From Candidatus Geothermarchaeota archaeon (GTDB taxonomy: Archaea; Thermoproteota; Nitrososphaeria; Geothermarchaeales; JDFR-13): 55,333 nucleotides of DNA. The translations under genes and the position numbers were made by a program. The notes beneath the pieces are model-generated. The model was not told where the DNA came from, did no database searches, and saw only the letters and a program-made list of their open reading frames with translations. Position 1 is the stretch's first letter. Each line of letters begins with the position of its first letter. The stretch lies in assembly GCA_015523725.1 (NCBI GenBank), contig WAJV01000034.1:1-55333 (forward strand). Direction: 5' to 3'. Below are positions 14,985 through 31,938 of the stretch, one piece after another.

Positions 14985-15917
14985 ATGGACGTGGTCTTGG
15001 ATATGGATCCTGGAGTCGATGACGCGGTTGCACTTATGTTGGCTTTGAATAGTGAGGAGCTGAATATAGTTGGGATAACTACAACATATGGTAATGTACC
15101 TGTTGATATCGCGACTAAGAACGTTTTCCGTGTATTGTCTCTCGCTAATAGGATTGATGTACCTGTTTATGTAGGTTCATATAGACCAATACTTAGTTTC
15201 GCTGGTTATGCTGAGGATATCCATGGTGAAGATGGATTGGGTGGTGTCTCGATCCCCTATGTTGATATATCACCTAAGGGATCTGCAGTTCCCTTCCTCA
15301 TGCATGCTGCTAGGGAGTATGAAGATTTAACTATAGTCTCCACCGGCCCTTTGACAAATATTGCTTTAGCCATTTTAGTGGATAGGGAGTTCCCTAGACA
15401 CGTAGGGAGATTGATTCATATGGGTGGCGCGTATGGATTGACTGACTATGGTTATGGAAATGTTGGTCCAGTTAATGAATTTAACATTTATAGCGATCCC
15501 CATGCTGCTAAAGTAGTTTTCGAGAGTGATCTAGATATTTTCAGCATTGGTCTCGATGTAACCATGAATCCATCGGCCATGTTTAATGAGCATGAGGTGA
15601 GGTCGATTGGTAAAAAGGGTGGAGAATTTGGTAGGTATATTCCACATATGGTTAGGAGGATTATTGAGAAGGAGGGCGCTGTTGCTTTTCACGACGCTGT
15701 TCCAGTAGCATATTTGGTAGATAATTCTCTGTTAAAGTTTAGGGATCTGTATGTATCTATAGAGGTTTCTGGCGTGGAGGCTTATGGAGCTATGATCGTA
15801 GATAGGAGGAATTGGTTACCGAGTGAGCTTAGGCAAGGGAGTTTAGTTAAGGTTGCTTATTGGATAGATGGTGATAAGTTTAAGAGGATTCTTTGGGATA
15901 GGGTGTTTATGCATTAG
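14985..15917 (+). CDS. Inosine/uridine-preferring nucleoside hydrolase
   Basis: DMDPGVDDA, HGEDGLG, GPLTN, EFNIY.DP and HD motifs; ATG 14985. Confidence 0.93.
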   Translation: MDVVLDMDPGVDDAVALMLALNSEELNIVGITTTYGNVPVDIATKNVFRVLSLANRIDVPVYVGSYRPILSFAGYAEDIHGEDGLGGVSIPYVDISPKGSAVPFLMHAAREYEDLTIVSTGPLTNIALAILVDREFPRHVGRLIHMGGAYGLTDYGYGNVGPVNEFNIYSDPHAAKVVFESDLDIFSIGLDVTMNPSAMFNEHEVRSIGKKGGEFGRYIPHMVRRIIEKEGAVAFHDAVPVAYLVDNSLLKFRDLYVSIEVSGVEAYGAMIVDRRNWLPSELRQGSLVKVAYWIDGDKFKRILWDRVFMH

Positions 15918-17983
15918 CTTATACCTATGAAATTCTCCAGACTGATTAATCTATTTTCGGCATACTCTATTGGTAGCGTATCGATGCTCTTGTTCAACCT
16001 ATTTATATAGTAATTCTTACTGTATCCCATATCTTCACTCCAGTATTCTATTGGGATGGCCTCCCTCTTACTATCCACTATAAATTTTACTACTTCTCCT
16101 TCCCTTAACTTAAATCGTTTTACAGCGTCTATAAATAGGTTATTACCTCTATATTCATACCATCTTCTAGTTATTCTCTTTGTTATTAATAGGTCTTTGA
16201 TGGGGGCTTCTCCATTTGCTATGATGGATATGTAATTAGAGTGGAGGCTTAATACTTTCTTTAATAGGGTTCTCATATCTTCTATATCTGTAGCCTTTGA
16301 AAGTATGTCTATAGCTTCTTTCTGGAATCTTTTTATTATTGGTGGTGTATCCCTCCTAACTAGTTCAATGCCCTTGACTTTTATCTCTCCATTATATCCT
16401 ACACCATAATATCTGTTTGATTGGGCTATAGGCGGTCTACTCATATTTTTTGGTAGATATAGCCATTTATAATGTATATCCAGTTCCATTCTTATACCTA
16501 TTTCCCTAGATATTTCTCTACAGAGTTTAATATAATCTTCTCTTGTGCCTCCTTCTTTATAGACCCATATACTATCTACTATTGCATGTATTACTTTATA
16601 GCCGTGTTTCTTGGCTATATTTATTGTTTTATTGAGGATATATCTGGCATAGGCTGTAACCGATTCGTATGCTTCTATTTTTCCGAATCTAGCGTTTCTA
16701 TATCCAAGGTATCCAAAGCATGCTACTAGTATCCATTTTATGGCATTCTGTCTAGCATAATATATTGGATCACGAGTTTCTTTAGCCAGGTCTTTCAAGA
16801 CCACTCTTCTCCTTATAAGTTTATTTAGAACCATTGGGACTATGCCTTCAACATCCATACATATTTTATGGATCCCTATCGGTGTGACTATATATTCTTT
16901 ACACCCTTCTCTATTAACCGTTTCATTACTGATGTTATACTTTACTATTATGTTTGGGTATAGGCTTGTGAAGTCGCATTGGGCTATATTCCAGTAGAGG
17001 CCTGGTGTGGGTATGTAATATAGTCCGCCTCTATCGATCTTATATAAATTAGTTAGTTTCTTAGGCTTCTCTATATCAACCCTATACTCAGGTATAGCCA
17101 TATGTCTTTTAAGTGCCTCTACCGCCTCTATAGTAGTCAATATTTTTCCTATACTGTATTTGGATACCCTGCCTAGGTCGGTGTAGGAGAGACGACTTAA
17201 TTCGATTAATCCATGGTATTCACTTGGTTCTAATACTGTTGATCCATAGTTTATATATACTCTCCTACGTTTGTGTAGTACCTCTTTTACTCCATCCTTC
17301 TTGACTAGCCATTTATGGAGTATTGGATTTGTATACTCGATTACATCTGGGTCATAGTAGTTTATATATTCAATCAAAGTATCTATGTTCCTGACTTCCA
17401 ATTTATCTTGGTTGCCATTTACATATATAATATATTTCTCGGGTTCCTTCCTCCATGGATTACTGTTTTCTCCGTACCAGTTGAATCCCCTTATTAATAT
17501 CCTCTTGAAGGGTGGGGGTATATAGTTTATTGATTCTCTATCCTCATATTCATATGCATCTATAAATCCACCATCTATATGTATATTTGCTAATAGGCTT
17601 GGTGGAACACCTATATCCAATAATATTTTTTGGGGGATTGCTGGTATTGTATTATATAGTTTGATATGTGTATAATAACTGTTTCTTAGATATCTAACGA
17701 ATTTATAGTATTCACTTATTCCAGAGAATCTTATTACATATATATTTCTATCCTTATTATACCATGGAGGGAGTCTCCAATTCTCTTTATATACATCTAA
17801 TATATCGTCTTTGAATCCCTTGATTAATCGTATAGCCTCCTCATCATCTCCATGAATATATGCTTTTGGAGTATAGTATATTGGTATTTCCCTATATCTA
17901 TGATTTATATCTTTAATTACTATTAATGCCCTGTTTAGCCTTGTATCTATATCTATTTTAAGTATCCATCCTTTGATATCCAT
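15914..17983 (-). CDS. polB2: Family B DNA polymerase, PolB2 (Dpo2) subfamily
   Basis: DFTSLYP (motif A), KWILVACFGYLGY (motif B) and a PolC motif reading AIVDS instead of GDTDS; eroded exonuclease region. Confidence 0.9.
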   Translation of the reverse strand: MDIKGWILKIDIDTRLNRALIVIKDINHRYREIPIYYTPKAYIHGDDEEAIRLIKGFKDDILDVYKENWRLPPWYNKDRNIYVIRFSGISEYYKFVRYLRNSYYTHIKLYNTIPAIPQKILLDIGVPPSLLANIHIDGGFIDAYEYEDRESINYIPPPFKRILIRGFNWYGENSNPWRKEPEKYIIYVNGNQDKLEVRNIDTLIEYINYYDPDVIEYTNPILHKWLVKKDGVKEVLHKRRRVYINYGSTVLEPSEYHGLIELSRLSYTDLGRVSKYSIGKILTTIEAVEALKRHMAIPEYRVDIEKPKKLTNLYKIDRGGLYYIPTPGLYWNIAQCDFTSLYPNIIVKYNISNETVNREGCKEYIVTPIGIHKICMDVEGIVPMVLNKLIRRRVVLKDLAKETRDPIYYARQNAIKWILVACFGYLGYRNARFGKIEAYESVTAYARYILNKTINIAKKHGYKVIHAIVDSIWVYKEGGTREDYIKLCREISREIGIRMELDIHYKWLYLPKNMSRPPIAQSNRYYGVGYNGEIKVKGIELVRRDTPPIIKRFQKEAIDILSKATDIEDMRTLLKKVLSLHSNYISIIANGEAPIKDLLITKRITRRWYEYRGNNLFIDAVKRFKLREGEVVKFIVDSKREAIPIEYWSEDMGYSKNYYINRLNKSIDTLPIEYAENRLISLENFIGIS

Positions 17984-19595: not shown

Positions 19596-20147
19596 ATGCC
19601 TATATATACGAGGTTGGGGGATAAGGGGAATACGAGTGTAATTGGGGGTGTTAGGCTTCCTAAGGATCATCCGCTTATTGAGGCTTTGGGAACTATTGAT
19701 GAGTTGGCGTCTCTATTGGGTTATATTAGGTCTTTGACTGATGAGGATTATTTAATAAATATTATTAAGGAGGTGCAGGTGGATCTTCATAGGATGTCGG
19801 CTGAGTTGGCTTGTACTTATAGCCCTATTATTGGGAGGAAGTGTGAGGATATTAGTAGAAATGATGTGGCTAGGTTGGAGTTATATATTGATGAGGTTGA
19901 GGCAAATATACCTCCCCTCGATAAGTTTATTGTGGTTGGTGGTAGTGAGTTATCTTCTCTGCTGCATTTCGCTAGAGCTATTTGTAGGAGGGCGGAGAGG
20001 AGGGTTGTTACATTCTTTAAGTCTCAAGGTGTGGAGGGGCATGGGGATGTAATTGCATATTTAAATAGATTGAGTGATTTACTATTTGTTTTAGCTAGGA
20101 AGGTTGGTTTGGAGGAGGGATTTGAAGAGGAGTACTGGACTCCCTGA
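19596..20147 (+). CDS. pduO: ATP:cob(I)alamin adenosyltransferase, PduO type
   Basis: IYTR.GDKG.T, GTIDEL, RAICRRAERR and YLNRLSDLLF. Confidence 0.93.
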   Translation: MPIYTRLGDKGNTSVIGGVRLPKDHPLIEALGTIDELASLLGYIRSLTDEDYLINIIKEVQVDLHRMSAELACTYSPIIGRKCEDISRNDVARLELYIDEVEANIPPLDKFIVVGGSELSSLLHFARAICRRAERRVVTFFKSQGVEGHGDVIAYLNRLSDLLFVLARKVGLEEGFEEEYWTP

Positions 20148-20159
20148 GTGGGGTGGTAG

Positions 20160-22928
20160 ATTATTGAATATAGGGTTAGGATTGGTCTTGAGGTTCATGT
20201 ACCTGTTAATACGGTAGAATCGAAATTATTCTGTGGATGTAGGAATCCATATCGTCACAAGCCTAATAAGCCTAATGAATATGTATGCCCTATATGTTTA
20301 GGTCTACCTGGTGCTTTACCTAGGCCTAATAAAGATGTGCTTATTAAGGCAATTAGAGCTGCAAAGGCTTTGCATTGTAGCGTTAGTGACTCCATCCAGT
20401 TTTATAGGAAGCATTATTTTTATCCCGATCTTCCAAAGGGTTACCAGATAACACAGTTTTTGGGTGGTGGATTCTTACCTATAGGTGTCGATGGGTATTT
20501 AGATTTGGATGATGGTAAGCGGATTCGGATTAAGAGGATTCATGTAGAAGAAGATCCCGCGAGATTGGTGCATCCATCGGGGTTAGGTGAATCTAATAGG
20601 GTCTTAGTGGACTATAATAGATCTGGGGCCCCACTTATTGAGATCGTTACTGAGCCAGATATAGGTTCGCCTGAGGAGGCCCGTGCATTTTTGGATAAGT
20701 TGAGATATATGTTGGAGGCGGTCGGAGTTCTCGATCCATCTATTGATTATGGTCTCAAAACCGATGCTAATGTATCCTTGGGTGAGGGTTCTAGGGTAGA
20801 GATTAAGAATGTAGGATCTGCTAGGGATGTCGAGAAGGCTCTTTCATTTGAGATTATGCGGATGCGGAGATATCTGGATGAGGGTGTTGAGGTGGAGAGG
20901 GAGACTCGTCATTGGGATGAGAGGCGTAGAGTGACGGTCTCAATTAGGGAGAAGGAATATGAGGAGGAGTATAGATACTTTCCTGACCCAAATATTCCAC
21001 CAATAGATTTGAGAACATTGGTTGATGAGGCGTTAAGTGGTATGCCTAAACTAGTCGATGAAGTTGTTCGCGAATTGACCGATACGTATTTGATTAAGCC
21101 TGAGTATGCTAATGTTATTGGTAGGGATCGGGATTTATTGGCTCTCTTTAGAATGCTTTCTCTAGAGCCTAGTAAAGTTAGTGTAAATAGGTTTCTGGCT
21201 AAATTATTGGTCAATGAGGGTAAGTATTTGTTGAAGAGGAACTTGGTTAGATTGGATGAGTTGGCGAATATATTACGGAGCATTATTCAGATGGTGATTG
21301 AGGGTATCCTTAGTGAGGGGGAGGCTAGGAAGAGGCTGCTCCGTAGGTATGAGGCTAGGGAGGGTTTGAAGAAGGTCGAGCCTGGAGTATTGGATAAGTA
21401 TATCAAGGATGTTCTTGCGGAGATAGATGTATCCGGTGGTAATCCCAGGATTAGGGATTATGTTTCTGGCTTGGTTATTAATAGGTTAAGGGAAGATGGT
21501 TTTGCTGTGGATCCGAAATTGGTTAGTAATAGGGTTATGGAGTTGATGGAGCCGCTTTTATCGAGTGGCAGGAAGCCTAGTGTTGAGGTTGATAGGACTT
21601 ATCTTCGGCCTGTAGAGTATAAGGAGAGTTTGGCGGACAAGGTTGTCAATATTAAGGATGTTTTTGAGAAGGTTGGTGAGGAACTTATTATTTCTGGTTG
21701 GCTCGAGAGTAAGATGCATGTCGGTGGGAAATTATTCATTATATTGAGGGATTGGAGTGGAAGGATTCAGTGTATCAGTGAACGTGGCGATGATTTCTTC
21801 GACATGCTGAGGCGTCTTCATCGAGAGTCTTTCCTCATAGTGGGCGGTGTAGTAAGGAGAGATAAGAGGGCTCCGGGAGGCGCCGAGCTTAGATTGTCCT
21901 GGGTTAAACATGTGGGTGGTTATGAGCCGCCTCCACTCACTCTATTGGATTTGGCTAGATCAGGTATAGAGACGAGGATAAGATATCGTTACTTGGATAT
22001 TAGGAGTATGAGAAATCGAAGTATTTTTAGTTTCAGAGCAAAATTATTAGTGGCTATTAGAGATTTCTTTAAAGAGAGGGGTTTTACCGAGATAAATACA
22101 CCAAAAATTATCACGACTGCCACCGAGGGGGGAGCCGAGTTATTTCCATTGCTCTTCTATGGTAGGGAGGCTTTCTTAGCTCAGAGTCCACAACTCTATA
22201 AGCAGATGGCTCTCAACATGTTTAGGAAAGTGTATGAGATAGATAGTTATTATAGGGCGCAGAAATTTGATACTCCTAGGCATCTAGCTGAGTTTTGGTC
22301 GATTGATGTCGAGGCATCACTATATACTCTAGATGATTTATTGTCTCTCGTCGAGGATTTATGCATATATTGCGTTGATTATTTAAGAGATGAGGCGAGG
22401 GAGGAGTTGGATATCCTTGGGAGGGATCTACCTAGGTTATTTAAGCCTTTTCCCAGGATAACCTATTTAGATGCATTGGATCTCCTTCGAAGTAAAGGTG
22501 TTAACATAGTTTTTGGTGAGGATCTCGGAGCGTCGGAGCTTAAGTTATTAGACGTTTTTGGTGATAAACCATATTTCATTACATATTGGCCTAGGGACAT
22601 TAGGGCTTTTTACTATAAGGTTAATGAGGATGATAATAGATTGACTAATAGTTTTGATTTCATGTGGCCATTGGAGAGAGGTTATCCATTGGAGCTAGCT
22701 AGTGGTGGTGAGAGGATTAATGATCCTAATTTATTGATGGAGAATATGAGGAGGAAGGGGTTGTTCCCGGAGGCTTACGAATGGTATATAAATATGTTTA
22801 GATATGGTATGCCTCCCCATGGAGGCTTCGGTTTAGGTCTTGATAGATTATTAATGGCTTTATTACAGCTTAATACCGTTTTAGAGGGGGTTTTCTCCCC
22901 TAGAACACCTAAATATAGTGAACCTTAG
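20160..22928 (+). CDS. gatB/aspS: Fusion protein: Asp-tRNA(Asn) amidotransferase subunit GatB plus aspartyl-tRNA synthetase (probably non-discriminating)
   Basis: N-part: IGLEVH, KLFC, CPICLGLPG, RKHYFYPDLPKGYQITQ, DYNRSG.PL.EIVTEP, YRYFPDP. C-part: OB-fold (SGW..F.ILRD), TPKI, AQSPQLYKQ, RHLAEF, PPHGGFGLGLDR. One open frame, extending 59 codons upstream of the called GTG to ATT 20160. Confidence 0.92.
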   Translation: MIEYRVRIGLEVHVPVNTVESKLFCGCRNPYRHKPNKPNEYVCPICLGLPGALPRPNKDVLIKAIRAAKALHCSVSDSIQFYRKHYFYPDLPKGYQITQFLGGGFLPIGVDGYLDLDDGKRIRIKRIHVEEDPARLVHPSGLGESNRVLVDYNRSGAPLIEIVTEPDIGSPEEARAFLDKLRYMLEAVGVLDPSIDYGLKTDANVSLGEGSRVEIKNVGSARDVEKALSFEIMRMRRYLDEGVEVERETRHWDERRRVTVSIREKEYEEEYRYFPDPNIPPIDLRTLVDEALSGMPKLVDEVVRELTDTYLIKPEYANVIGRDRDLLALFRMLSLEPSKVSVNRFLAKLLVNEGKYLLKRNLVRLDELANILRSIIQMVIEGILSEGEARKRLLRRYEAREGLKKVEPGVLDKYIKDVLAEIDVSGGNPRIRDYVSGLVINRLREDGFAVDPKLVSNRVMELMEPLLSSGRKPSVEVDRTYLRPVEYKESLADKVVNIKDVFEKVGEELIISGWLESKMHVGGKLFIILRDWSGRIQCISERGDDFFDMLRRLHRESFLIVGGVVRRDKRAPGGAELRLSWVKHVGGYEPPPLTLLDLARSGIETRIRYRYLDIRSMRNRSIFSFRAKLLVAIRDFFKERGFTEINTPKIITTATEGGAELFPLLFYGREAFLAQSPQLYKQMALNMFRKVYEIDSYYRAQKFDTPRHLAEFWSIDVEASLYTLDDLLSLVEDLCIYCVDYLRDEAREELDILGRDLPRLFKPFPRITYLDALDLLRSKGVNIVFGEDLGASELKLLDVFGDKPYFITYWPRDIRAFYYKVNEDDNRLTNSFDFMWPLERGYPLELASGGERINDPNLLMENMRRKGLFPEAYEWYINMFRYGMPPHGGFGLGLDRLLMALLQLNTVLEGVFSPRTPKYSEP

Positions 22929-22939
22929 GTGATTTTAGG

Positions 22940-24358
22940 TTGAAGGGACCACTGTCTTCATTAGATGTTGAGGCTAGAAAGGATCTTGTCGAGAGGCAGT
23001 ATAACCTCCTCCGGGAGACTAAAGATAAATTTAATGCATTTATTCACTTGAGGGAATTCGAGTCTATTATAGATGAGGTTGAGGGGAAGGAAGGTCCTTT
23101 AACTGGCTTTTTAATACCTGTCAAAGATAATATTGCTGTCGCTGGGCTCCCCAATACCTGTGGAAGTAGAATGTTGGAGAATTATGTCTCACCATATGAT
23201 GCACATGTCATTAATTTGTTGAAGAGATTGGGTGGTGTTGTGGTTGGCAAGACTAATATGGATGAGTTTGCTATGGGTAATTCTGGTGAGACTAGTTATT
23301 TTGGGCCGACGTTGAATCCATGGGATAGGGATAGAGTCCCAGGTGGGAGTAGTAGTGGTAGTGCGGTGGCTGTTGCCTGGGATGGTTTTGCATCATTAGG
23401 GAGTGATACTGGTGGTAGTGTTAGGTTGCCCGCTGCATACACACATATATTGGGTTTGAAACCTACTTATGGAACCCTGAGTAGATATGGATTAATATCA
23501 TATGCCGATAGTCTGGAGCAGATAGGCTTATTCACTAGATTCTCTTTGGATATGGCATATCTATTATACTATCTTATGGAATATGATCCAAGGGATATGA
23601 CGATGTATTCTGGAAATGTGAGAGATGTTGTGAGGAAGAACTTGAAAATGGTATTTGAAGGCAAGTACAGTGTTGATGGTTTAAAAATGGCGTACTCGAA
23701 TCAATTGATTACTCTGTGTGAGGAACCCGTTCAGAAGAAGGTGTTCGATGCAATCGATAAGATGGAGGGCCTTGGTGTTAAGGTTTTTGATGTGGATATG
23801 GATTTCGTTGAGCCATCACTCTCAATTTACTACATAATCGCTATGGTTGAGGCTAGCAGTAACTTGGCGAGATATAGTGGAGAAAATTATGGGTATCGTG
23901 TTGATGCCGGTAGTTATTGGGAATCGGTGCGAAAGACACGTAGCATTGGTTTCGGTGATGAGGTGAAGCGTAGAATTATAATGGGTACTTATGCTTCTAG
24001 TAAGGGGTATGAGGGGAAGTACTATATTAGGGCTTTAAAGGGGAGGAGGTGGGTAAAGGAGAGATTGAATAAATTGTTGGGTTTGTATGATTTTCTGGTT
24101 TTACCTGTGTCTCCTAGATTACCTCCTAGATTGGGTGAGGCTATTGGACCAGATGGCTACATCATTGATATTTTTACAGTTGTACCTAATTTAACTGGTA
24201 ACCCTGCATTAACTATACCTATTGGCTTGGTGGATGGTTTACCTACTGGTATTCAATTAATTGGTAATTACTTTTCAGAACCTGATTTAATCTTTTTAGG
24301 TTATTTGATGGAGGGAAAAATATATGATCCTTATCTGTCTCCGAGGGGTGTTGATTGA
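22940..24358 (+). CDS. gatA: Asp/Glu-tRNA amidotransferase subunit A
   Basis: VKDN, GKTNMDEFAMG, PGGSSSGS, GSDTGGSVR, EASSNLARY and GFG.EVKRRI. Confidence 0.95.
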   Translation: MKGPLSSLDVEARKDLVERQYNLLRETKDKFNAFIHLREFESIIDEVEGKEGPLTGFLIPVKDNIAVAGLPNTCGSRMLENYVSPYDAHVINLLKRLGGVVVGKTNMDEFAMGNSGETSYFGPTLNPWDRDRVPGGSSSGSAVAVAWDGFASLGSDTGGSVRLPAAYTHILGLKPTYGTLSRYGLISYADSLEQIGLFTRFSLDMAYLLYYLMEYDPRDMTMYSGNVRDVVRKNLKMVFEGKYSVDGLKMAYSNQLITLCEEPVQKKVFDAIDKMEGLGVKVFDVDMDFVEPSLSIYYIIAMVEASSNLARYSGENYGYRVDAGSYWESVRKTRSIGFGDEVKRRIIMGTYASSKGYEGKYYIRALKGRRWVKERLNKLLGLYDFLVLPVSPRLPPRLGEAIGPDGYIIDIFTVVPNLTGNPALTIPIGLVDGLPTGIQLIGNYFSEPDLIFLGYLMEGKIYDPYLSPRGVD

Positions 24359-24651
24359 TGGATTTGACTACTGATATTCGTAGAATGATGGAGATAAGTT
24401 TAGTTGGTGGTGACCCCCAATCTTTTTTGGAGGATGTGAAGAAGATCCTTGATTTATTCGATAAATTAGATAGTTTCGAGGATAAATTCAGTGAGGTTGA
24501 ACCATTATATCATCCACTTGAATATAGAGGTTCACCTAGGCAGGATAAAGTGATTGATGTTTATGTTGATGTATCGAAGTTAACGGATTATGTTGAGGAT
24601 GGTTACGTCTATCTCCCTCCAATAAAAGGGGTTAAAAGGTTGACTAGATAG
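24355..24651 (+). CDS. gatC: Asp/Glu-tRNA amidotransferase subunit C (divergent)
   Basis: 98 aa overlapping the gatA stop; IL..FD.L, VEPLYHP, R.D and GY...P.I pattern of GatC. Confidence 0.72.
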   Translation: MMDLTTDIRRMMEISLVGGDPQSFLEDVKKILDLFDKLDSFEDKFSEVEPLYHPLEYRGSPRQDKVIDVYVDVSKLTDYVEDGYVYLPPIKGVKRLTR

Positions 24652-25129
24652 TTTCCTCAGGCCTCTTTAGGAAGCCCTTAACTTTAGCCTGTGTTATAAC
24701 ATTGAGTATTAGTCTTGTGTGTGTGCGTTCAATATATCTATGTTCATTTATTTCTTTTATAAAATCATCTAACTCCCATCGGCTCTTGAATAAAGCAAAT
24801 ATTGTAATATCATAATCTCCAGTAATGTCATAGACAGCGTAAACATTATCATATTTACTTAATTCATGTTCAACTTGCCTAATTTTACCTTTTGATACTT
24901 TGATATCGATCAATACTGGAAATATATATCCTAGCTTTTCTAGGTTTAACTTTATTGTATATCCCTCTATTATGCCGAGTTCCTCCAATCTCTTTATCCT
25001 AGCTTGCACGGTACCAGCGGATAACCCCAGTCTTCTAGCTATTTCCCTAGCCGAGACCCTTGAGTTGTTAATCAATATTGAGAGTATCTGTATATCTCTA
25101 TAATCGACAAACGTATGTTTTGCCACCAT
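24644..25129 (-). CDS. Lrp/AsnC-family transcriptional regulator
   Basis: D..IL..L..NSR.S.REIA HTH, RI.RLE..GII.GY and VYDITGDYD. Confidence 0.93.
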   Translation of the reverse strand: MVAKHTFVDYRDIQILSILINNSRVSAREIARRLGLSAGTVQARIKRLEELGIIEGYTIKLNLEKLGYIFPVLIDIKVSKGKIRQVEHELSKYDNVYAVYDITGDYDITIFALFKSRWELDDFIKEINEHRYIERTHTRLILNVITQAKVKGFLKRPEETI

Positions 25130-25259
25130 CTATATCCACCATTTGTTCAGAATATTGTTTTGATAGGCTTAAATATTAAACATTTGTCAAGTATAAATAT
25201 ATAAGTTTTAGCTACTTAAGTAATTTTTTATGTTTTTTCTAGTCATTTGGTGAATAGCT

Positions 25260-26663
25260 ATGGCCTCCATGTTAGATAAGATACGTGAATTTAATGTGGA
25301 TTGGGTTGAGCTTCACTTTACTGATTTATATGGAAGGTTGAAGATGACGATGGTTCCGGCCGACACCATTGATGAAGACTCGATAAAAGGCGGTATTCCA
25401 AAGCTTGATGGAAGCAGTGTGACGGGGTTCGGGCGTATAGAATTTAGTGACTTAAATTTACTGCCTGATGAGGATACCTTCGTTATATTACCTTGGAGGG
25501 TGGATGGAGACGTAGTGGGGCGGGTGTATAATTATGTTTATAAGTCGCTGGGACTCGGTCCGTTGGAGGTTGATCCGCGTCAAGTAGCTAAGAAATTGGT
25601 TGAATATTTATCTAATAAGGGTTTCAAGGCTTACTCGGGATTAGAGGCTGAGTATTATGTCCTTAAGGATGTTAAGGTCGATGTTTCTCAGCCATATTTT
25701 AAGATGTCCTACATGATTGATTCGCCTGAGGCACCTTGGAATCAGGATGGATACCCGACTTCCTTTAAGGATGGTTATTACACTTCCCTACATACAGATT
25801 CTATATATGAATATAGGTATAAAGTGGCTTCTCTACTAAAAAAGAGTTTTGGTGTTGATTCGACTGCCCACCATCATGAGGTGGGGGTTGTGGCTCAGAT
25901 GGAGATTGATATTAAGCATAGTGATCCACTGAGGACGGCTGATAATTATATGACTCTTAAGTATGTCGCTAGGAAGGTAGCTCAGGATTATGGGTTATTA
26001 GCAACGTTTATGCCTAAGCCGATATTTGGTGATAATGGCTCGGGTCTCCATACACATATAAGTATTTGGAGGGATAATGATAATCTATTCTATGATCCAG
26101 ACGATGAATATGCCGAGCTTAGTCAATTTGCTAGATATTTTATAGGCGGCTTATTAGAACATGGTAGAAGTCTTTCAGCCATAGTTTCTCCAACTGTGAA
26201 TAGCTATAAGAGACTCGTTCCTGGTTATGAGGCACCTATATTTCTTGCTTGGTCGAGGGGGAATAGAAGTAGTGCGGTTAGGGTTCCAGTGTATCGTAGA
26301 GGGAGGCCTTGGGAGAAGAGGATAGAGTATAGGCCTCCTGATCCTTTGGCTAATCCATATCTAGCAATACCTGCAATAATCATGGCTGGTCTCGATGGAG
26401 TTAAAAAGAAGATCGAGCCTGGGGACCCCGTCGATAAAGATATTTACCATTTAAGTGATTCTGAGTTGAGGAAGTATAATATCAGGAGCCTCCCTAGAGA
26501 TTTATATGAAGCGGTTGAGGAACTGGGTTCCGACAATGATTATTTACGGCCAGTCTTTAACTCTGAGGTCCTAGATACTTTTATGGAGATTAAGAGGAGA
26601 GAGTTTCTAGAGCTTAATCAATACCCTACTCCTGTTGAGCTGCATAGATATTTCTCTTATTAA
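25260..26663 (+). CDS. glnA: Glutamine synthetase type I
   Basis: FTDL.G, DGSS, HHHEV, TFMPKP..GDNGSG.H, NSYKRLVPGYEAP and RIEYRPPDP. Confidence 0.96.
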   Translation: MASMLDKIREFNVDWVELHFTDLYGRLKMTMVPADTIDEDSIKGGIPKLDGSSVTGFGRIEFSDLNLLPDEDTFVILPWRVDGDVVGRVYNYVYKSLGLGPLEVDPRQVAKKLVEYLSNKGFKAYSGLEAEYYVLKDVKVDVSQPYFKMSYMIDSPEAPWNQDGYPTSFKDGYYTSLHTDSIYEYRYKVASLLKKSFGVDSTAHHHEVGVVAQMEIDIKHSDPLRTADNYMTLKYVARKVAQDYGLLATFMPKPIFGDNGSGLHTHISIWRDNDNLFYDPDDEYAELSQFARYFIGGLLEHGRSLSAIVSPTVNSYKRLVPGYEAPIFLAWSRGNRSSAVRVPVYRRGRPWEKRIEYRPPDPLANPYLAIPAIIMAGLDGVKKKIEPGDPVDKDIYHLSDSELRKYNIRSLPRDLYEAVEELGSDNDYLRPVFNSEVLDTFMEIKRREFLELNQYPTPVELHRYFSY

Positions 26664-29721: not shown

Positions 29722-31938
29722 TTACCTAAGTTTTATCTGCCTCGGTGGGTATGATGAATAATAATATGCCAAACCTACTCTATTGTCGATTAAATATATC
29801 AGTGCTATGGAGCCCTTATCGGTATTGAAATAGATATATATCACTTTTTTATCTATTTGGATTATCTGACCAGTAAATGTTTTGTTATCTTTGGTGATCC
29901 AAACGGCTGATTGATTTCCATCTATTACGAAATGGTCGAGTAATTTAGCGGGTAGAATGCTTGTATACTCATATATATAGACGTCTACATAAATAATGTC
30001 CTCTATATCTGTAATGTTTTCCATTGTATAGTTGCCTGTTGATATGTTCCATGTTAAGTGTATAGTTTTGAATCGTAGTTTCAAAGGATGAGGTAGGTAT
30101 GTATCGTTTATGTAGTAGTTCATCATTATTTTGAATCTACCATATTGATTTGTATATCCATCTGCAATTTTCTTCCCATACTTATCGAATACCTCTACTG
30201 TTACATTCTTTATTGGTGTTTTAGTTATATTACTATATATGACTCCTGTTAATATGTAGGTTACTGTGGTATTGCTGTGGAAGATGAGGCTGTTTGCTTC
30301 ATTAAATGCAGTATTTCGTATGGTTATTTTCGCGGTGGTGGCATATAACTTATTTGCAGTTGTATTGATGATGTTGACAATCCCTCCTTGAATATATATA
30401 CTCCATCCACTTGCATTTCTTAGGTCGGATCCTTCTATATTTATTATACTTTTGTTGTCTCCAGATATGAGGAGGCCGTCTAATGGCGACTGCCCCAGCC
30501 GTATTTGGCTAAGGGTTATGTTTGCTTTGCTGTTCACGGAGTTTATGTAACCAAGTCTTCTATCTGTATTCGTTATATATAAATTGCTTATTGTTATATT
30601 GCTGGGGGAGTTCTTTAGATTTAGTGTGAATCCGATTTGTATGGCTCTATCCACACTTGCATTATTTATGTCTATATTGGCTGTTGTGTTTGTTATTTGT
30701 GCTTCAAAAATTTTATCGGTTAATCCGTTCATTGTTAAGCCATTTATATTTGCCTGTATACTGCTGTTTATCGTATTAATGCTTAGGGCTTTATGAGATG
30801 CATCAGTAACCTTTATATTAAATATCGATAGGGATAGATTTGAGAATTTTGTATTTAGATCAATTATTGGTGATTCACTTATCCAGGTTAAGTTATCCAT
30901 GTCTAGACTTACCTGTGTGTTCTGTGCATCTAAGCTTAATTTATCCTGCGATTTATAGAAGGTAATGTTACTGAGTTTTACATATAATAGTCCCGAGTTT
31001 ATTGTGATCGATGAATTTAGGAGATTTGTTTTACTTACAAGCAGGTTTTTTAGGTTGAGGATTATATTAGGGTCTCCGTGTTTCTCTATATAGATAAATC
31101 TTTTGTTGTTATTTTGGATCTTCAGGTTGTCTAAATTGATTGATAATTGGCTATTTCCGGTAGTGTTTATGTATAATCCGATATTATTTCCATTTCCAAA
31201 TTCTATGTTTTGAATATTGAGGGTTAGGTCGGTATTAATTATTGATGAGTTTAGTATTGTATTTGACCATATTCCATCATCTAGGATGATGAAGATTATC
31301 TTTGAGTTTTCTGCATGGAGATTAATCATCTCCCCAGTTATGGTTGTTGTAACATTTCTTATTTTGATGTATATGTATGTGTTAGTGGTTGAAGTTTTTA
31401 ATATGTGTGTCAATTTTATATAACTAGCTTGTGTAACATATACATTCTTTAGAATTGCTGTGTAATTACCTCCTTTTGAGACTGTAATTATATCTGATAC
31501 TATATTGTTTACTCCCCCTCCCCTAGATATATTGATAAATATGTCTTCAAGGGTGAGGCTTGAGTTTGATCCCTCTAGGCTGAATAAATGGTTTGTATAT
31601 ACTCCATAAAATTCGATTGATATGTTTCTAATAACGACATTGGAGTCGATTATCTGTAACTGTTTCCCCTTTGCTATTCTGTTAACCCTCCAATGAAATC
31701 CATTTCCCTCTATTGTTAATGATTTGTCTATGTATCCTCCATAGAAGTCATCGGAGACGTTGCTTATGAAGTAGAGTGTATCGCCGTTCATAACTTGATT
31801 CGATGATACCGCATCCATAACGTTTTGGAAGTCGCCTCCCTCACCTATTGTCCATACCTTATTTCCCTTTAATCCAGGAGATGGAATCAATATTAAGGTT
31901 ATTAGTCCTAGTAATATTATCAACTTGAGAGTATTCAT
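29722..31938 (-). CDS. Large secreted/surface protein with predicted right-handed beta-helix and a C-terminal carboxypeptidase-regulatory-like beta-sandwich
   Basis: N-terminal signal peptide; G.GGDFQ.V.DAV..GDT cap; Asn/Ile/Ser/Thr-rich repeats with many N-x-S/T sequons; PI.NVTV.V....G.T...G.F near the C-terminus. Confidence 0.65.
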   Translation of the reverse strand: MNTLKLIILLGLITLILIPSPGLKGNKVWTIGEGGDFQNVMDAVSSNQVMNGDTLYFISNVSDDFYGGYIDKSLTIEGNGFHWRVNRIAKGKQLQIIDSNVVIRNISIEFYGVYTNHLFSLEGSNSSLTLEDIFINISRGGGVNNIVSDIITVSKGGNYTAILKNVYVTQASYIKLTHILKTSTTNTYIYIKIRNVTTTITGEMINLHAENSKIIFIILDDGIWSNTILNSSIINTDLTLNIQNIEFGNGNNIGLYINTTGNSQLSINLDNLKIQNNNKRFIYIEKHGDPNIILNLKNLLVSKTNLLNSSITINSGLLYVKLSNITFYKSQDKLSLDAQNTQVSLDMDNLTWISESPIIDLNTKFSNLSLSIFNIKVTDASHKALSINTINSSIQANINGLTMNGLTDKIFEAQITNTTANIDINNASVDRAIQIGFTLNLKNSPSNITISNLYITNTDRRLGYINSVNSKANITLSQIRLGQSPLDGLLISGDNKSIINIEGSDLRNASGWSIYIQGGIVNIINTTANKLYATTAKITIRNTAFNEANSLIFHSNTTVTYILTGVIYSNITKTPIKNVTVEVFDKYGKKIADGYTNQYGRFKIMMNYYINDTYLPHPLKLRFKTIHLTWNISTGNYTMENITDIEDIIYVDVYIYEYTSILPAKLLDHFVIDGNQSAVWITKDNKTFTGQIIQIDKKVIYIYFNTDKGSIALIYLIDNRVGLAYYYSSYPPRQIKLR

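What the first reader, a model, noticed from the sequence alone, without database searches (positions are those of the whole stretch)
20160..24651. GatB fused to aspartyl-tRNA synthetase, followed by gatA and gatC: a covalently hard-wired Asn-transamidosome
Seen: one uninterrupted ~920-codon frame holds a complete GatB catalytic domain, a shortened helical/YqeY-like tail (ending ...DPKLVSNRVMELM, ~21550), a ~30-aa linker and a full archaeal-type AspRS (OB-fold, motifs 1-3, QSPQLYKQ). gatA and a divergent gatC follow directly. The anticodon-domain loop reads DKRAPGG, with the Pro associated with non-discriminating AspRS. Established: ND-AspRS, tRNA(Asn) and GatCAB form a non-covalent transamidosome that channels Asp-tRNA(Asn). 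Inference: here the complex is genetically tethered, and since AspRS is a dimer it would assemble as (GatB-AspRS/GatA/GatC)2 independently of tRNA. gatB/aspS fusions are annotated in some bacteria as I recall, but I know of no characterised archaeal example, so this may be an independent fusion.
Basis: partly seen in the sequence, partly recalled or inferred. Interest (0 to 1): 0.88.

Follow-up and report, generated by a model that had tools for sequence, protein, structure and literature searches.

The report
Natural GatB–AspRS fusion enzyme in archaea
One gene in this vent archaeon joins the tRNA-charging enzyme AspRS to the GatB subunit that turns tRNA-bound aspartate into asparagine, so a two-enzyme relay known only as a loose complex is here one protein; the fusion is real and conserved, but the genome also has the ordinary direct route.

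Summary
Window 20160-22928 (+) is one open 922-codon frame: GatB catalytic domain, a complete but very diverged GatB helical/YqeY tail, a ~28-residue variable linker, and a full archaeal-type AspRS. gatA and gatC follow with coupled starts. The fusion is not an assembly artefact. The junction is uninterrupted in the window's genome, in 10 of 13 other genomes of its family and in one genome of another class. Both halves give the same tree, so there was one old fusion event. Bacterial-type GatB/AspS fusions and a third type arose separately, always in the order GatB then AspRS.

The reading needs correction. The genome also encodes AsnRS, a free AspRS, GatDE and AsnB. Three family members lack the whole module. 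It is therefore an accessory route to Asn-tRNA(Asn), not the only one.

All 34 fused AspRS domains carry the RAP loop also seen in AsnRS. The free AspRS of the family has a shorter loop without the proline. This fits a split between a tRNA(Asp) enzyme and a tRNA(Asn)-accepting fused enzyme.

The gene has no canonical start codon: TAG is followed directly by ATT ATT, and this is conserved in relatives. Six literature searches found no paper on such a fusion. I rate it a new variant of a known kind.

The parts
19596..20147 (+). Upstream gene for a PduO-type cobalamin adenosyltransferase-like protein. Its stop codon lies 12 nt before the fused gene.
   Evidence: Pfam Cob_adeno_trans 178.8 bits. 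A homologue lies directly upstream of the fusion in G000, G001, G002, G006 and G008.
20148..20165 (+). Start region: Shine-Dalgarno-like GGGGTGG, in-frame TAG (20157-20159), then ATT ATT. ATT is the probable non-canonical start codon.
   Evidence: The string GGGGTGGTAG ATT ATT GAA TAT is the same in G000, G001 and G006; G002 has TGA TTA ATT ATT. A second assembler's 3980-nt contig of run X1 is unchanged here.
20160..22928 (+). gatB::aspS fused gene, 922 codons plus stop.
   Evidence: The fused frame is uninterrupted in 10 of 13 other genomes of the family and in G665.
20178..21014 (+). GatB catalytic (cradle) domain, residues 7-285.
   Evidence: Pfam GatB_N 298.4 bits. The motifs IGLEVH, EEDPA, NRSG, DANVS and RVEIKN are invariant or nearly so in 28 fused homologues.
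21015..21563 (+). GatB helical plus YqeY-like tail domain, residues 286-468, strongly diverged.
   Evidence: hhalign to canonical GatB positions 301-494 of 509, probability 98.9%. No Pfam PF02637 hit. All-helical in the AlphaFold2 model. Foldseek aligns 507-509 columns to full-length GatB chains 3ip4_B and 3al0_B.
21564..21647 (+). Linker, residues 469-496, variable in length and sequence.
   Evidence: Gappy, unconserved columns in alignment A1. pLDDT below 50 at 468-480. Two strain variants in run X1 at 21552-21671 differ by 6 substitutions (5 amino-acid changes), with no indel and no stop. Highest dN of the four parts.
21648..22907 (+). Archaeal-type AspRS, residues 497-916: OB fold at 21690-21890 and class II core at 21969-22904. 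There is no GAD domain.
   Evidence: NF003483 417 bits. Best solved relative is the Sulfolobus tokodaii AspRS 1wyd, 338 bits. Foldseek TM 0.80-0.85 to 1wyd and 3kfu_A.
21861..21881 (+). Anticodon-domain loop DKRAPGG. Its proline aligns with K85 of T. kodakarensis AspRS.
   Evidence: Alignment to 3nel and 1b8a. RAP is present in 34 of 34 fused domains; the loop is shorter and lacks proline in 8 of 8 free AspRS of the family.
22182..22205 (+). QSPQLYKQ amino-acid-site motif. It carries the lysine typical of AspRS; the genome's AsnRS has QSSQFYEE here.
   Evidence: The role of the lysine is recalled, not tested.
22940..24358 (+). gatA, 472 aa. The TTG start is preceded by GGTGAT, which overlaps the stop of the fused gene.
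   Evidence: Amidase 384 bits, TIGR00132 476 bits. Sequence context. It is the only Amidase-family gene found in the genome.
24355..24651 (+). gatC, 97-98 aa. ATG 24358 overlaps the gatA stop as TGATG.
   Evidence: Pfam GatC 27.1 bits. Homologues follow gatA in 6 of 6 further fused loci. Start context.
24644..25129 (-). Lrp/AsnC-family regulator, convergent with gatC.
   Evidence: HTH_AsnC-type plus AsnC_trans_reg. Same position in 5 of 5 other family genomes checked.
25260..26663 (+). Glutamine synthetase glnA, which makes the amide donor used by GatA.
   Evidence: Gln-synt_C 404 bits. Same position in 5 of 5 other family genomes checked.

Best explanation
The locus encodes a covalently linked asparagine transamidosome.

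What is shown from sequence:
- One 922-residue polypeptide carries GatB (kinase/transamidase domain plus tRNA-binding tail) followed by a complete archaeal-type AspRS.
- The partner genes gatA and gatC are translationally coupled behind it.

Inferred mechanism:
- The AspRS half binds tRNA(Asn) (anticodon GUU) through an AsnRS-like RAPGG loop and attaches aspartate.
- The acceptor end then swings into the tethered GatB site. There the aspartate is phosphorylated and amidated with ammonia that GatA releases from glutamine.
- Asn-tRNA(Asn) is thus made without releasing mischarged Asp-tRNA(Asn).
- AspRS is a class II dimer, so the expected particle is (GatB-AspRS)2(GatA)2(GatC)2.

The genome also has AsnRS, a free AspRS with a different anticodon loop, GatDE and AsnB. 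The module is therefore a second, accessory route that makes asparagine on the tRNA. Its conserved position beside lrp/asnC and glnA suggests it is tied to nitrogen status. It resembles the AspRS2 + GatCAB + AsnRS arrangement of Thermus and Deinococcus. Translation probably starts at a non-canonical ATT codon, coupled to the upstream gene.
For: - Architecture.
- Not an artefact:
  - One search found 32 protein clusters with this domain set, at 41-74% identity; 27 of them are aligned with the window's protein.
  - The fused frame occurs in 10 of 13 other family genomes, and in all 10 the match spans the junction without a stop.
  - A second assembler's contigs show no indel.
- One old fusion: the same 32 fused rows form a clade in the AspRS tree (100) and in the GatB tree (99), with the same sub-clades.
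- Both halves are constrained: motif residues of both enzymes are invariant in 28 sequences. Within the genus, dN is 0.14-0.17 for the cradle and 0.13-0.18 for AspRS, against 0.42-0.48 for the tail and 0.47-0.70 for the linker.
- Partners: gatA is adjacent in 7 of 7 loci and gatC in 7 of 7. Starts are coupled.
- tRNA(Asn) reading:
  - The proline aligns with K85 of 3nel.
  - RAP is in 34 of 34 fused domains, a proline in 15 of 15 gatCAB-linked AspRS of sister families, and the same D.RAPGG loop in the AsnRS rows.
  - The free AspRS of the family (8 of 8) has a loop 3 residues shorter with no proline.
- A tRNA with anticodon GUU is present at G000:C49:107-223.
- Both components of the solved transamidosome 3KFU match the model (3kfu_I GatB, 3kfu_A AspRS2).
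- Independent fusions (bacterial type with a GAD domain; P0123 type) have the same order, GatB then AspRS.
- Parallel in print: Thermus and Deinococcus have AsnRS plus a second archaeal-type AspRS used with GatCAB to make Asn on tRNA (PMC4206432, abstract and passages).
- The transamidosome protects the aminoacyl-tRNA and holds back Asp-tRNA(Asn) (PMC9499178 passages; PMC2330236 passages).
Against: - No expression data exist: no RNA run holds the stretch.
- There is no canonical start codon. If translation began at GTG 20337, the first 59 residues of GatB, including the conserved Cys/His cluster, would be missing.
- The route is redundant here. AsnRS and AsnB are present: AsnB is 408 bits in G001 and G002, and is split over two contig ends in this genome. 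An AsnRS-like core-only paralogue is also present.
- Three family genomes (G004, G007, G012) lack gatA and gatB.
- The position aligned with W26 of T. kodakarensis AspRS is Glu, both in the fused and in the free AspRS. That second recalled specificity marker does not tell them apart.
- TIGR00458 scores 365.8 bits, just under its cut-off of 368.4.
- Motif 2 reads RAQ where most AspRS have RAE.
- tRNA(Asp) was not found in this 72.7%-complete assembly.
- The domain arrangement in the model is uncertain (pTM 0.47).
Confidence: 0.72

Rival explanations
1. The fusion only ensures equal production of two enzymes. The AspRS half is an ordinary AspRS, discriminating or general, and there is no substrate channelling and no preference for tRNA(Asn).
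For: The catalytic motifs are those of an ordinary AspRS. The residue at the W26 position is the same (Glu) in the fused and the free enzyme. AsnRS is present, so Asn-tRNA(Asn) does not depend on this module.
Against: The genome already has a free AspRS. The fused domain shares its anticodon loop with AsnRS and with gatCAB-linked AspRS, not with the free AspRS. GatDE covers glutamine, which leaves Asp-tRNA(Asn) as the only known substrate for GatCAB. The same domain order arose in at least three independent fusions.
Confidence: 0.1
2. The AspRS half no longer aminoacylates. It serves GatB only as an anticodon-reading tRNA(Asn) binding module, and the substrate is made by another enzyme.
For: The GatB tail that normally binds tRNA is unusually diverged. 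Motif 2 has Gln for Glu.
Against: Motifs 1-3, QSPQLYKQ and the SGGER segment are invariant across 28 homologues. dN of the AspRS half is as low as that of the GatB cradle. The free AspRS lacks the proline loop, so no other enzyme in the genome carries the loop expected of a tRNA(Asn)-charging AspRS.
Confidence: 0.05
3. In this genome the gene is decaying. The original start codon has become TAG, and only a truncated 863-residue product without the GatB N-terminus, or nothing, is made.
For: TAG sits exactly where homologue P0003 has its start codon. The first canonical start is GTG 20337. The pathway is redundant in this genus.
Against: The same TAG ATT ATT context, with a Shine-Dalgarno-like GGGGTGG, is kept in three genomes of two genera (G000, G001, G006). 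Over that divergence the downstream 922 codons stayed open with low dN. A dead gene would not stay intact so long.
Confidence: 0.06
4. The single frame is an assembly or binning artefact that joins separate gatB and aspS genes.
For: The window comes from a metagenome-assembled genome (113 contigs, 2.1% contamination). The second assembler's graph has a bubble at 21552-21671.
Against: The bubble consists of two in-frame variants of 120 nt that overlap both flanks. The same junction is open in 11 further genomes (10 of the family plus G665) and in 27 aligned homologues. The two halves give congruent trees.
Confidence: 0.02

Closest known systems
Thermus thermophilus Asn-transamidosome (archaeal-type ND-AspRS2 + GatCAB + tRNA(Asn); PDB 3KFU) and the Thermus/Deinococcus arrangement of AspRS1 + AspRS2 + GatCAB + AsnRS
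   Same: Same components: an archaeal-type AspRS without a GAD domain, plus GatB, GatA and GatC. The model matches 3kfu_A and 3kfu_I. The genomic logic is also the same: a second AspRS working with GatCAB beside an AsnRS and a housekeeping AspRS (PMC4206432).
   Different: There the complex is non-covalent and depends on tRNA (PMC9499178 passage). Here GatB and AspRS are one chain, which fixes a 1:1 ratio. The GatB tail is diverged beyond Pfam recognition. AsnB is also present in this genus.
Bacterial 'bifunctional amidotransferase subunit GatB/aspartate--tRNA ligase AspS' (automatic cluster name; about 1090-1214 aa)
   Same: Same order, GatB then AspRS, in one polypeptide.
   Different: It has a bacterial-type AspRS with a GAD domain and a canonical GatB_Yqey tail. 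Its GatB half nests among bacterial GatB. It is therefore an independent fusion. I found no experimental paper on it.
NCBIfam NF009460, bifunctional aspartyl-tRNA synthetase / amidotransferase subunit C (AspRS-GatC fusion)
   Same: Another natural covalent link between AspRS and a GatCAB subunit. It appears in the hit list.
   Different: A different subunit is fused (GatC, not GatB), and to a bacterial-type AspRS. The window's protein scores 98 bits against a cut-off of 1379, so it is not a member.
aspS2-gatC-gatA-gatB gene clusters in sister families of the same class
   Same: A second AspRS with a proline in the loop is genetically linked to gatCAB, and a separate free AspRS lacks the proline.
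   Different: The genes are separate and in a different order. The fused AspRS clade lies outside the clade that holds these linked AspRS (98 SH-aLRT, quick tree).
Deinococcus radiodurans GlnRS with a C-terminal YqeY/GatB-tail domain
   Same: An aminoacyl-tRNA synthetase covalently joined to a piece of the amidotransferase tRNA-binding apparatus (PMC1865053, abstract in the listing; PMC2330236 passage).
   Different: Only the tail paralogue is fused there, to a class I GlnRS. No transamidation is involved.

Membership tests
GatB (Asp-tRNA(Asn)/Glu-tRNA(Gln) amidotransferase subunit B) | GatB/GatE catalytic cradle domain scoring above the curated cut-offs | tested here: met
   Pfam PF02934 298.4 bits (cut-off 23.4). 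NCBIfam NF004012 405.1 bits (cut-off 338) and TIGR00133 352.5 bits (cut-off 314.8).
GatB (Asp-tRNA(Asn)/Glu-tRNA(Gln) amidotransferase subunit B) | C-terminal helical plus YqeY-like tail domain that binds the tRNA D-loop | tested here: inconclusive
   Pfam PF02637 is not detected even at E up to 10. Profile-profile alignment to canonical GatB 301-494 gives probability 98.9% at 19% identity. The region is all-helical in the model. The fold is kept; whether it still binds the D-loop is unknown.
GatB (Asp-tRNA(Asn)/Glu-tRNA(Gln) amidotransferase subunit B) | Works with GatA and GatC, which are encoded beside it | tested here: met
   gatA and gatC lie directly downstream here and in 6 of 6 further fused loci.
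Archaeal-type non-discriminating AspRS (aspartate--tRNA(Asn) ligase) | Class IIb architecture: N-terminal OB fold plus catalytic core, no GAD insertion, scoring above the curated cut-off | tested here: met
   NF003483 417 bits (cut-off 353). TIGR00458 365.8 bits is just under its cut-off of 368.4. No PF02938 hit. Best solved relative is 1wyd.
Archaeal-type non-discriminating AspRS (aspartate--tRNA(Asn) ligase) | Aspartate-type active site: Lys in QSPQLYK where AsnRS has Glu | tested here: met
   QSPQLYKQ is invariant in 28 fused sequences. The genome's AsnRS reads QSSQFYEE. The role of this residue is recalled from the AspRS/AsnRS literature.
Archaeal-type non-discriminating AspRS (aspartate--tRNA(Asn) ligase) | Proline at the position of T. 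kodakarensis K85 in the anticodon-domain loop (K85P widens specificity; recalled from Feng et al. 2003, of which I saw only the title, in a reference list) | tested here: met
   K85 of 3nel and 1b8a aligns with P572. RAP is present in 34 of 34 fused domains.
Archaeal-type non-discriminating AspRS (aspartate--tRNA(Asn) ligase) | His at the position of T. kodakarensis W26 (recalled marker) | tested here: not met
   The position is Glu (GWLE), as in the free AspRS (GWVE). This marker does not separate the two enzymes here.
Archaeal-type non-discriminating AspRS (aspartate--tRNA(Asn) ligase) | Aspartylation of tRNA(Asn) | not testable with these tools
   Needs an enzyme assay.
Asn-transamidosome (ND-AspRS : GatCAB : tRNA(Asn)) | All components are encoded: an AspRS that accepts tRNA(Asn), GatC, GatA, GatB and tRNA(Asn) | tested here: met
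   A tRNA with anticodon GUU (with an intron) is at G000:C49:107-223.
Asn-transamidosome (ND-AspRS : GatCAB : tRNA(Asn)) | Physical association of AspRS with GatCAB | tested here: inconclusive
   The GatB-AspRS link is covalent if the frame is translated as one chain. No protein or RNA evidence is available. Binding of GatA and GatC was not modelled.
Obligate indirect Asn pathway (organisms without AsnRS) | No AsnRS in the genome | tested here: not met
   The 435-aa protein on C107 has P. horikoshii AsnRS 1x54 as best solved relative (460 bits, against 276 for AspRS) and sits in the AsnRS clade.
Bacterial bifunctional GatB/AspS | Bacterial-type AspRS half with a GAD domain, and a GatB half of bacterial descent | tested here: not met
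   No GAD domain. The bacterial fusions P0062, P0073, P0076 and P0090 form a clade inside bacterial GatB, away from the 32 archaeal fused rows.

The most novel reading that the evidence does not exclude
The fused synthetase half has become a dedicated tRNA(Asn) aspartylating enzyme. tRNA selection is handed over to its AsnRS-like anticodon loop, and the GatB tail is freed from its discriminating role. The particle would then be a self-contained two-step 'AsnRS in cis' that makes asparagine on the tRNA, invented at least three times with the same domain order. In this family it would be under nitrogen control (lrp/asnC-glnA neighbours) and throttled by an ATT start codon.
Probability: 0.3. Interest if true: 0.75.

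Novelty: new variant of a known kind. Interest (0 to 1): 0.58.

Why it matters
The transamidosome is the textbook case of channelling a deliberately mischarged tRNA, yet all studied examples are non-covalent and depend on tRNA.

A natural single-chain GatB-AspRS offers three things:
- a stable, stoichiometric particle for structural and kinetic work on how the acceptor end moves between the two active sites;
- a direct test of whether tethering replaces the tRNA-recognition role of the GatB tail;
- an evolutionary picture of how a two-step route can approach a one-enzyme 'AsnRS'.

The module coexists with AsnRS, a second AspRS and AsnB, so it also bears on why organisms keep two routes to Asn-tRNA(Asn).

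The family is rare. Among the best 150 of 1.84 billion cluster representatives, I count five of this archaeal type.

Tried and rejected
That the class is Nitrososphaeria-like is only inferred: family f6's GatB groups with a GatB labelled Nitrosocosmicus.
It returned mostly bacterial GatB and none of the archaeal fusions. It did show two bacterial loci colinear with the whole query (L008, L029).
- Expression: no RNA holder is listed for the stretch.
- Read laying gave a second assembler's contigs only, not raw reads. X1 may be the window's own source sample, so it is not independent support. X2 held only scattered conserved pieces of other organisms.
- aragorn found only 13 tRNAs, because many carry introns. 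The Rfam tRNA model found 23. These include tRNA(Asn) but not tRNA(Asp). In a 72.7%-complete assembly this does not show absence.
- dN/dS: dS was saturated or not computable, so I report only dN.
- The paper behind the K85P/W26H markers (Feng et al. 2003) is not held. I saw only its title in a reference list, so its content is recalled.
- Supplementary tables of PMC4206432 were not opened.
- Fusion as the cause of the tail's divergence is weakened. The independent fusions P0123, P0128 and P0208 keep a Pfam-detectable GatB_Yqey (127.6, 150.2 and 43.9 bits).
- I considered descent of the fused AspRS from the aspS2-gatCAB clusters of sister families. The tree does not support it; no AU test was run.
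- Complex prediction was not used. The whole particle exceeds the size limit, and the sub-pairs are textbook pairs.
- Trees are 'quick' IQ-TREE runs with SH-aLRT support only. Six rows on long branches were kept in. Rows left out of the trees: L092 and L095-L097 (cut by contig ends), and L098 and L101 (duplicates).
- The whole-window Rfam scan found nothing.

Full report
**1. What is there**

Window 20160-22925 is a single open frame of 922 codons that ends at TAG 22926-22928.

- Pfam finds GatB_N at residues 7-285, the OB fold at 511-577 and the class II core tRNA-synt_2 at 604-915.
- NCBIfam puts the N-terminal part above the GatB cut-off (NF004012, 405 bits against 338). It puts the C-terminal part above the cut-off of aspartate--tRNA(Asn) ligase (NF003483, 417 bits against 353). 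TIGR00458 falls just short, 365.8 against 368.4.
- gatA (22940-24358) and gatC (24355-24651) follow.
- The four genes from the upstream PduO-type adenosyltransferase gene to gatC are packed tightly. There are 12 nt before the fusion. A GGTGAT overlaps the fusion's stop, 7 nt before the TTG of gatA. The gatA stop and the gatC start overlap as TGATG.

**2. The middle of the protein**

Pfam's GatB_Yqey model does not see residues 290-500 at all.

A profile of the fused family's residues 286-468 aligns to positions 301-494 of a 509-residue canonical GatB, with probability 98.9%, E = 1.3e-17, 177 columns and 19% identity. The alignment includes the terminal segment that corresponds to the canonical ...VGqvM...GrADP motif.

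The AlphaFold2 model (mean pLDDT 78, pTM 0.47) makes 285-468 all helical and leaves 468-480 below pLDDT 50. Foldseek aligns 507-509 columns to full-length GatB chains (3ip4_B, 3al0_B). It also matches both partners of the solved transamidosome, 3kfu_I and 3kfu_A.

So the tail is complete but strongly diverged. The true linker is about 28 residues (469-496), and it varies in length and sequence among homologues.

**3. Is the fusion real?**

Yes.

- The word-index search returned 32 clusters with this domain set at 41-74% identity. 27 of them align end to end with the window's protein, with invariant motif residues in both halves.
- In whole genomes the fused frame occurs in 10 of 13 other genomes of the window's family. 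It is full-length in G001, G002, G005, G006, G009 and G011. It is cut by contig ends in G003, G008, G010 and G013. In all ten the match spans the junction without a stop.
- A second assembler's contigs of run X1 (labelled hydrothermal vent metagenome; possibly the source sample) cover 20050-21581 in one 3980-nt contig with three substitutions and no indel. Across 21552-21671 they show two in-frame variants that differ by six substitutions, five of them amino-acid changes in the linker.

**4. Distribution and origin**

- In a sample of 401 genomes of the class, the fusion is confined to the window's family: 10 of 13 there, and 0 of 387 in 19 other families.
- In a sample of 401 genomes of the phylum, one further genome has it: G665, of another class and identical to P0021. 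It is the only carrier among 41 of its relatives, 1 of 18 in its family.
- One homologue at 41% identity is labelled Candidatus Baldrarchaeia by NCBI, where it is named only 'aspartate--tRNA(Asn) ligase'.
- In quick maximum-likelihood trees the same 32 fused rows form one clade for the AspRS half (100) and for the GatB half (99), with the same sub-clades. This means one fusion event followed by joint evolution.
- The two Baldrarchaeia-type rows sit next to that clade in the GatB tree, if the root lies among bacteria. Their position in the AspRS tree is unresolved.
- The fused AspRS clade lies outside the clade (98) that unites the class's free AspRS with its gatCAB-linked AspRS.
- Sister families carry separate genes in the order aspS2-gatC-gatA-gatB, or with gatB divergent.
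- Bacterial fusions of 1090-1214 residues have a GAD-containing bacterial AspRS and nest in bacterial GatB. The ESM Atlas cluster of such proteins carries the automatic name 'bifunctional amidotransferase subunit GatB/aspartate--tRNA ligase AspS'.
- A third form, P0123, joins a GatB whose nearest listed relatives include two labelled Heliobacterium with a short AspRS-like enzyme.
- In all three forms the order is GatB then synthetase.
- Among the best 150 of 1.84 billion cluster representatives, I count five of the present type: P0008, P0029, P0030, P0031 and the partial P0033.

**5. The rest of the genome changes the reading**

The assembly (1.43 Mb, 113 contigs, 72.7% complete) also encodes:

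- a free 424-residue AspRS on C74, whose best solved relatives are 1wyd and 3nel;
- an AsnRS on C107, which scores 460 bits to P. horikoshii AsnRS 1x54 against 276 for AspRS and sits in the AsnRS clade;
- an AsnRS-like core-only paralogue on C18;
- GatD and GatE;
- an AsnB split over two contig ends. It is intact, at 408 bits against a cut-off of 267, in the two genomes of the same genus.

gatA is the only Amidase-family gene in the genome.

Within the family, G004, G007 and G012 have no gatA. Each has only one GatB_N match, in a GatE-sized frame of about 630 residues. G004 and G007 keep AsnRS and AspRS.

The module is thus accessory. This is the arrangement described for Thermus and Deinococcus: AsnRS, a housekeeping AspRS, and a second archaeal-type AspRS that works with GatCAB to make asparagine on the tRNA (PMC4206432, abstract and passages).

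**6. Which tRNA?**

Aligned to the T. kodakarensis AspRS structure, K85 falls on the proline of RAPGG and W26 on a glutamate. I recall, but could not re-read, that K85P or W26H make that enzyme accept tRNA(Asn).

Across my set:
- RAP is present in 34 of 34 fused domains.
- A proline is present in 15 of 15 gatCAB-linked AspRS of sister families.
- The AsnRS rows have the same D.RAPGG loop.
- The free AspRS of the family (8 of 8) has a loop three residues shorter, without proline. The free AspRS of families f4, f6 and f8 (7 of 7) also lack the proline.

The amino-acid site keeps the AspRS-type lysine (QSPQLYKQ). The AsnRS has QSSQFYEE.

A tRNA with anticodon GUU is in the assembly.

I infer a division of labour: the free AspRS serves tRNA(Asp), and the fused AspRS serves tRNA(Asn), alone or together with tRNA(Asp).

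**7. Constraint**

Within the genus, dN is 0.14-0.17 for the cradle, 0.13-0.18 for AspRS, 0.42-0.48 for the tail and 0.47-0.70 for the linker. dS is saturated.

At matched cradle identity of about 0.47-0.49, tail identity is 0.19 between fused and separate GatB, against 0.27 among separate GatB. The pairs are not independent.

This would fit a tail relieved of part of its tRNA-selecting role. But the independent fusions keep a canonical tail, so fusion alone does not explain the divergence.

**8. Start codon**

The frame opens right after TAG 20157-20159 with ATT ATT. The first canonical start, GTG 20337, would remove 59 residues, including the conserved Cys/His cluster.

The string GGGGTGGTAG ATT ATT GAA TAT is the same in G000, G001 and G006. 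G002 has TGA TTA ATT ATT. G011 has GTG codons. Homologue P0003 begins M-IIEYK.

I read this as initiation at ATT behind a Shine-Dalgarno-like GGGGTGG, probably coupled to termination of the upstream gene. This is an inference. The public 863-residue call (P0002) is most likely truncated.

**9. Neighbourhood**

An Lrp/AsnC-family regulator (24644-25129, minus strand) and glutamine synthetase (25260-26663) follow gatC. They lie in the same place in 5 of 5 other family genomes checked, but not in G665. Glutamine is the amide donor of GatA, so a link to nitrogen status is plausible. It is untested.

**10. Literature**

Six full-text searches found no paper describing a natural GatB-AspRS fusion. 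I also read passages in PMC4206432, PMC2943598, PMC9499178 and PMC2330236, which likewise do not mention one. In PMC9499178, 12 of 21 matching places were shown. The library lacks most subscription journals, and supplements were closed.

**11. Verdict**

The locus is a real, conserved and rare single-chain GatB-AspRS with GatA and GatC, best read as a covalent Asn-transamidosome that serves as a second route to Asn-tRNA(Asn). It is a new variant of a known kind. The components and the concept are known, and a bacterial analogue is named in databases. This archaeal lineage, its diverged tail, its coexistence with AsnRS, a free AspRS and AsnB, and its odd start codon are not described in what I could search.

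Noticed in passing
window 20148-20165; L089, L090, L088 start regions: The fused gene has no ATG, GTG or TTG start. An in-frame TAG is followed by ATT ATT behind a GGGGTGG, and this is conserved in G000, G001 and G006; G002 has TGA TTA ATT ATT. A non-canonical ATT start is likely. The automatic 863-aa gene call is probably truncated.
   Followed up: partly
window 24644-26663: An Lrp/AsnC-family regulator and glutamine synthetase lie directly after gatC. The arrangement is kept in 5 of 5 other family genomes checked but not in G665. This may link the module to nitrogen regulation.
   Followed up: partly
window 19596-20147: A PduO-type cobalamin adenosyltransferase-like gene ends 12 nt before the fusion. 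It is the upstream neighbour in G000, G001, G002, G006 and G008. Its functional link to the amidotransferase genes is not evident.
   Followed up: partly
window 21552-21671: Run X1 holds two strain variants of the linker at depths of about 170 and 117. They differ by six substitutions (V475I, V477L, R483Q, V485I, E486Q and one silent change).
   Followed up: yes
G000:C18:6959-7879 (L004 1483-2514, minus strand): A 343-aa paralogue consisting only of the AsnRS catalytic core, with no anticodon domain. Its best solved relative is AsnRS 1x54 (165 bits), and it is below all NCBIfam cut-offs. It might be an asparagine synthetase of the archaeal AsnRS-like kind. Similar frames occur in G001 and G002.
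   Followed up: partly
L102-L116 (sister families f3, f6, f8, f9): Conserved aspS2-gatC-gatA-gatB clusters. Genomes of f6 and f8 have two AspRS, one linked with a proline loop and one free without it. No member of the AsnRS clade was among the rows I fetched from them.
   Followed up: partly
P0123 (955 aa, metagenome protein): A third kind of GatB-synthetase fusion: a GatB whose nearest listed relatives include two labelled Heliobacterium, with a strong GatB_Yqey domain, joined to a short synthetase without a GAD domain whose loop lacks the RAP motif.
   Followed up: partly
G000:C49:107-223: tRNA(Asn) with anticodon GUU, a G1-C72 first pair and a long intron outside the canonical position. Many tRNAs of this genome carry introns, and aragorn missed about half of them.
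   Followed up: no
window 29722-31938 (minus strand): A 738-aa open frame with no Pfam family at E up to 1e-5.
   Followed up: no
window 15914-17983 (minus strand): A 689-aa frame with only a partial match to family B DNA polymerase (107 bits, profile positions 44-398). That is short for a replicative PolB.
   Followed up: no
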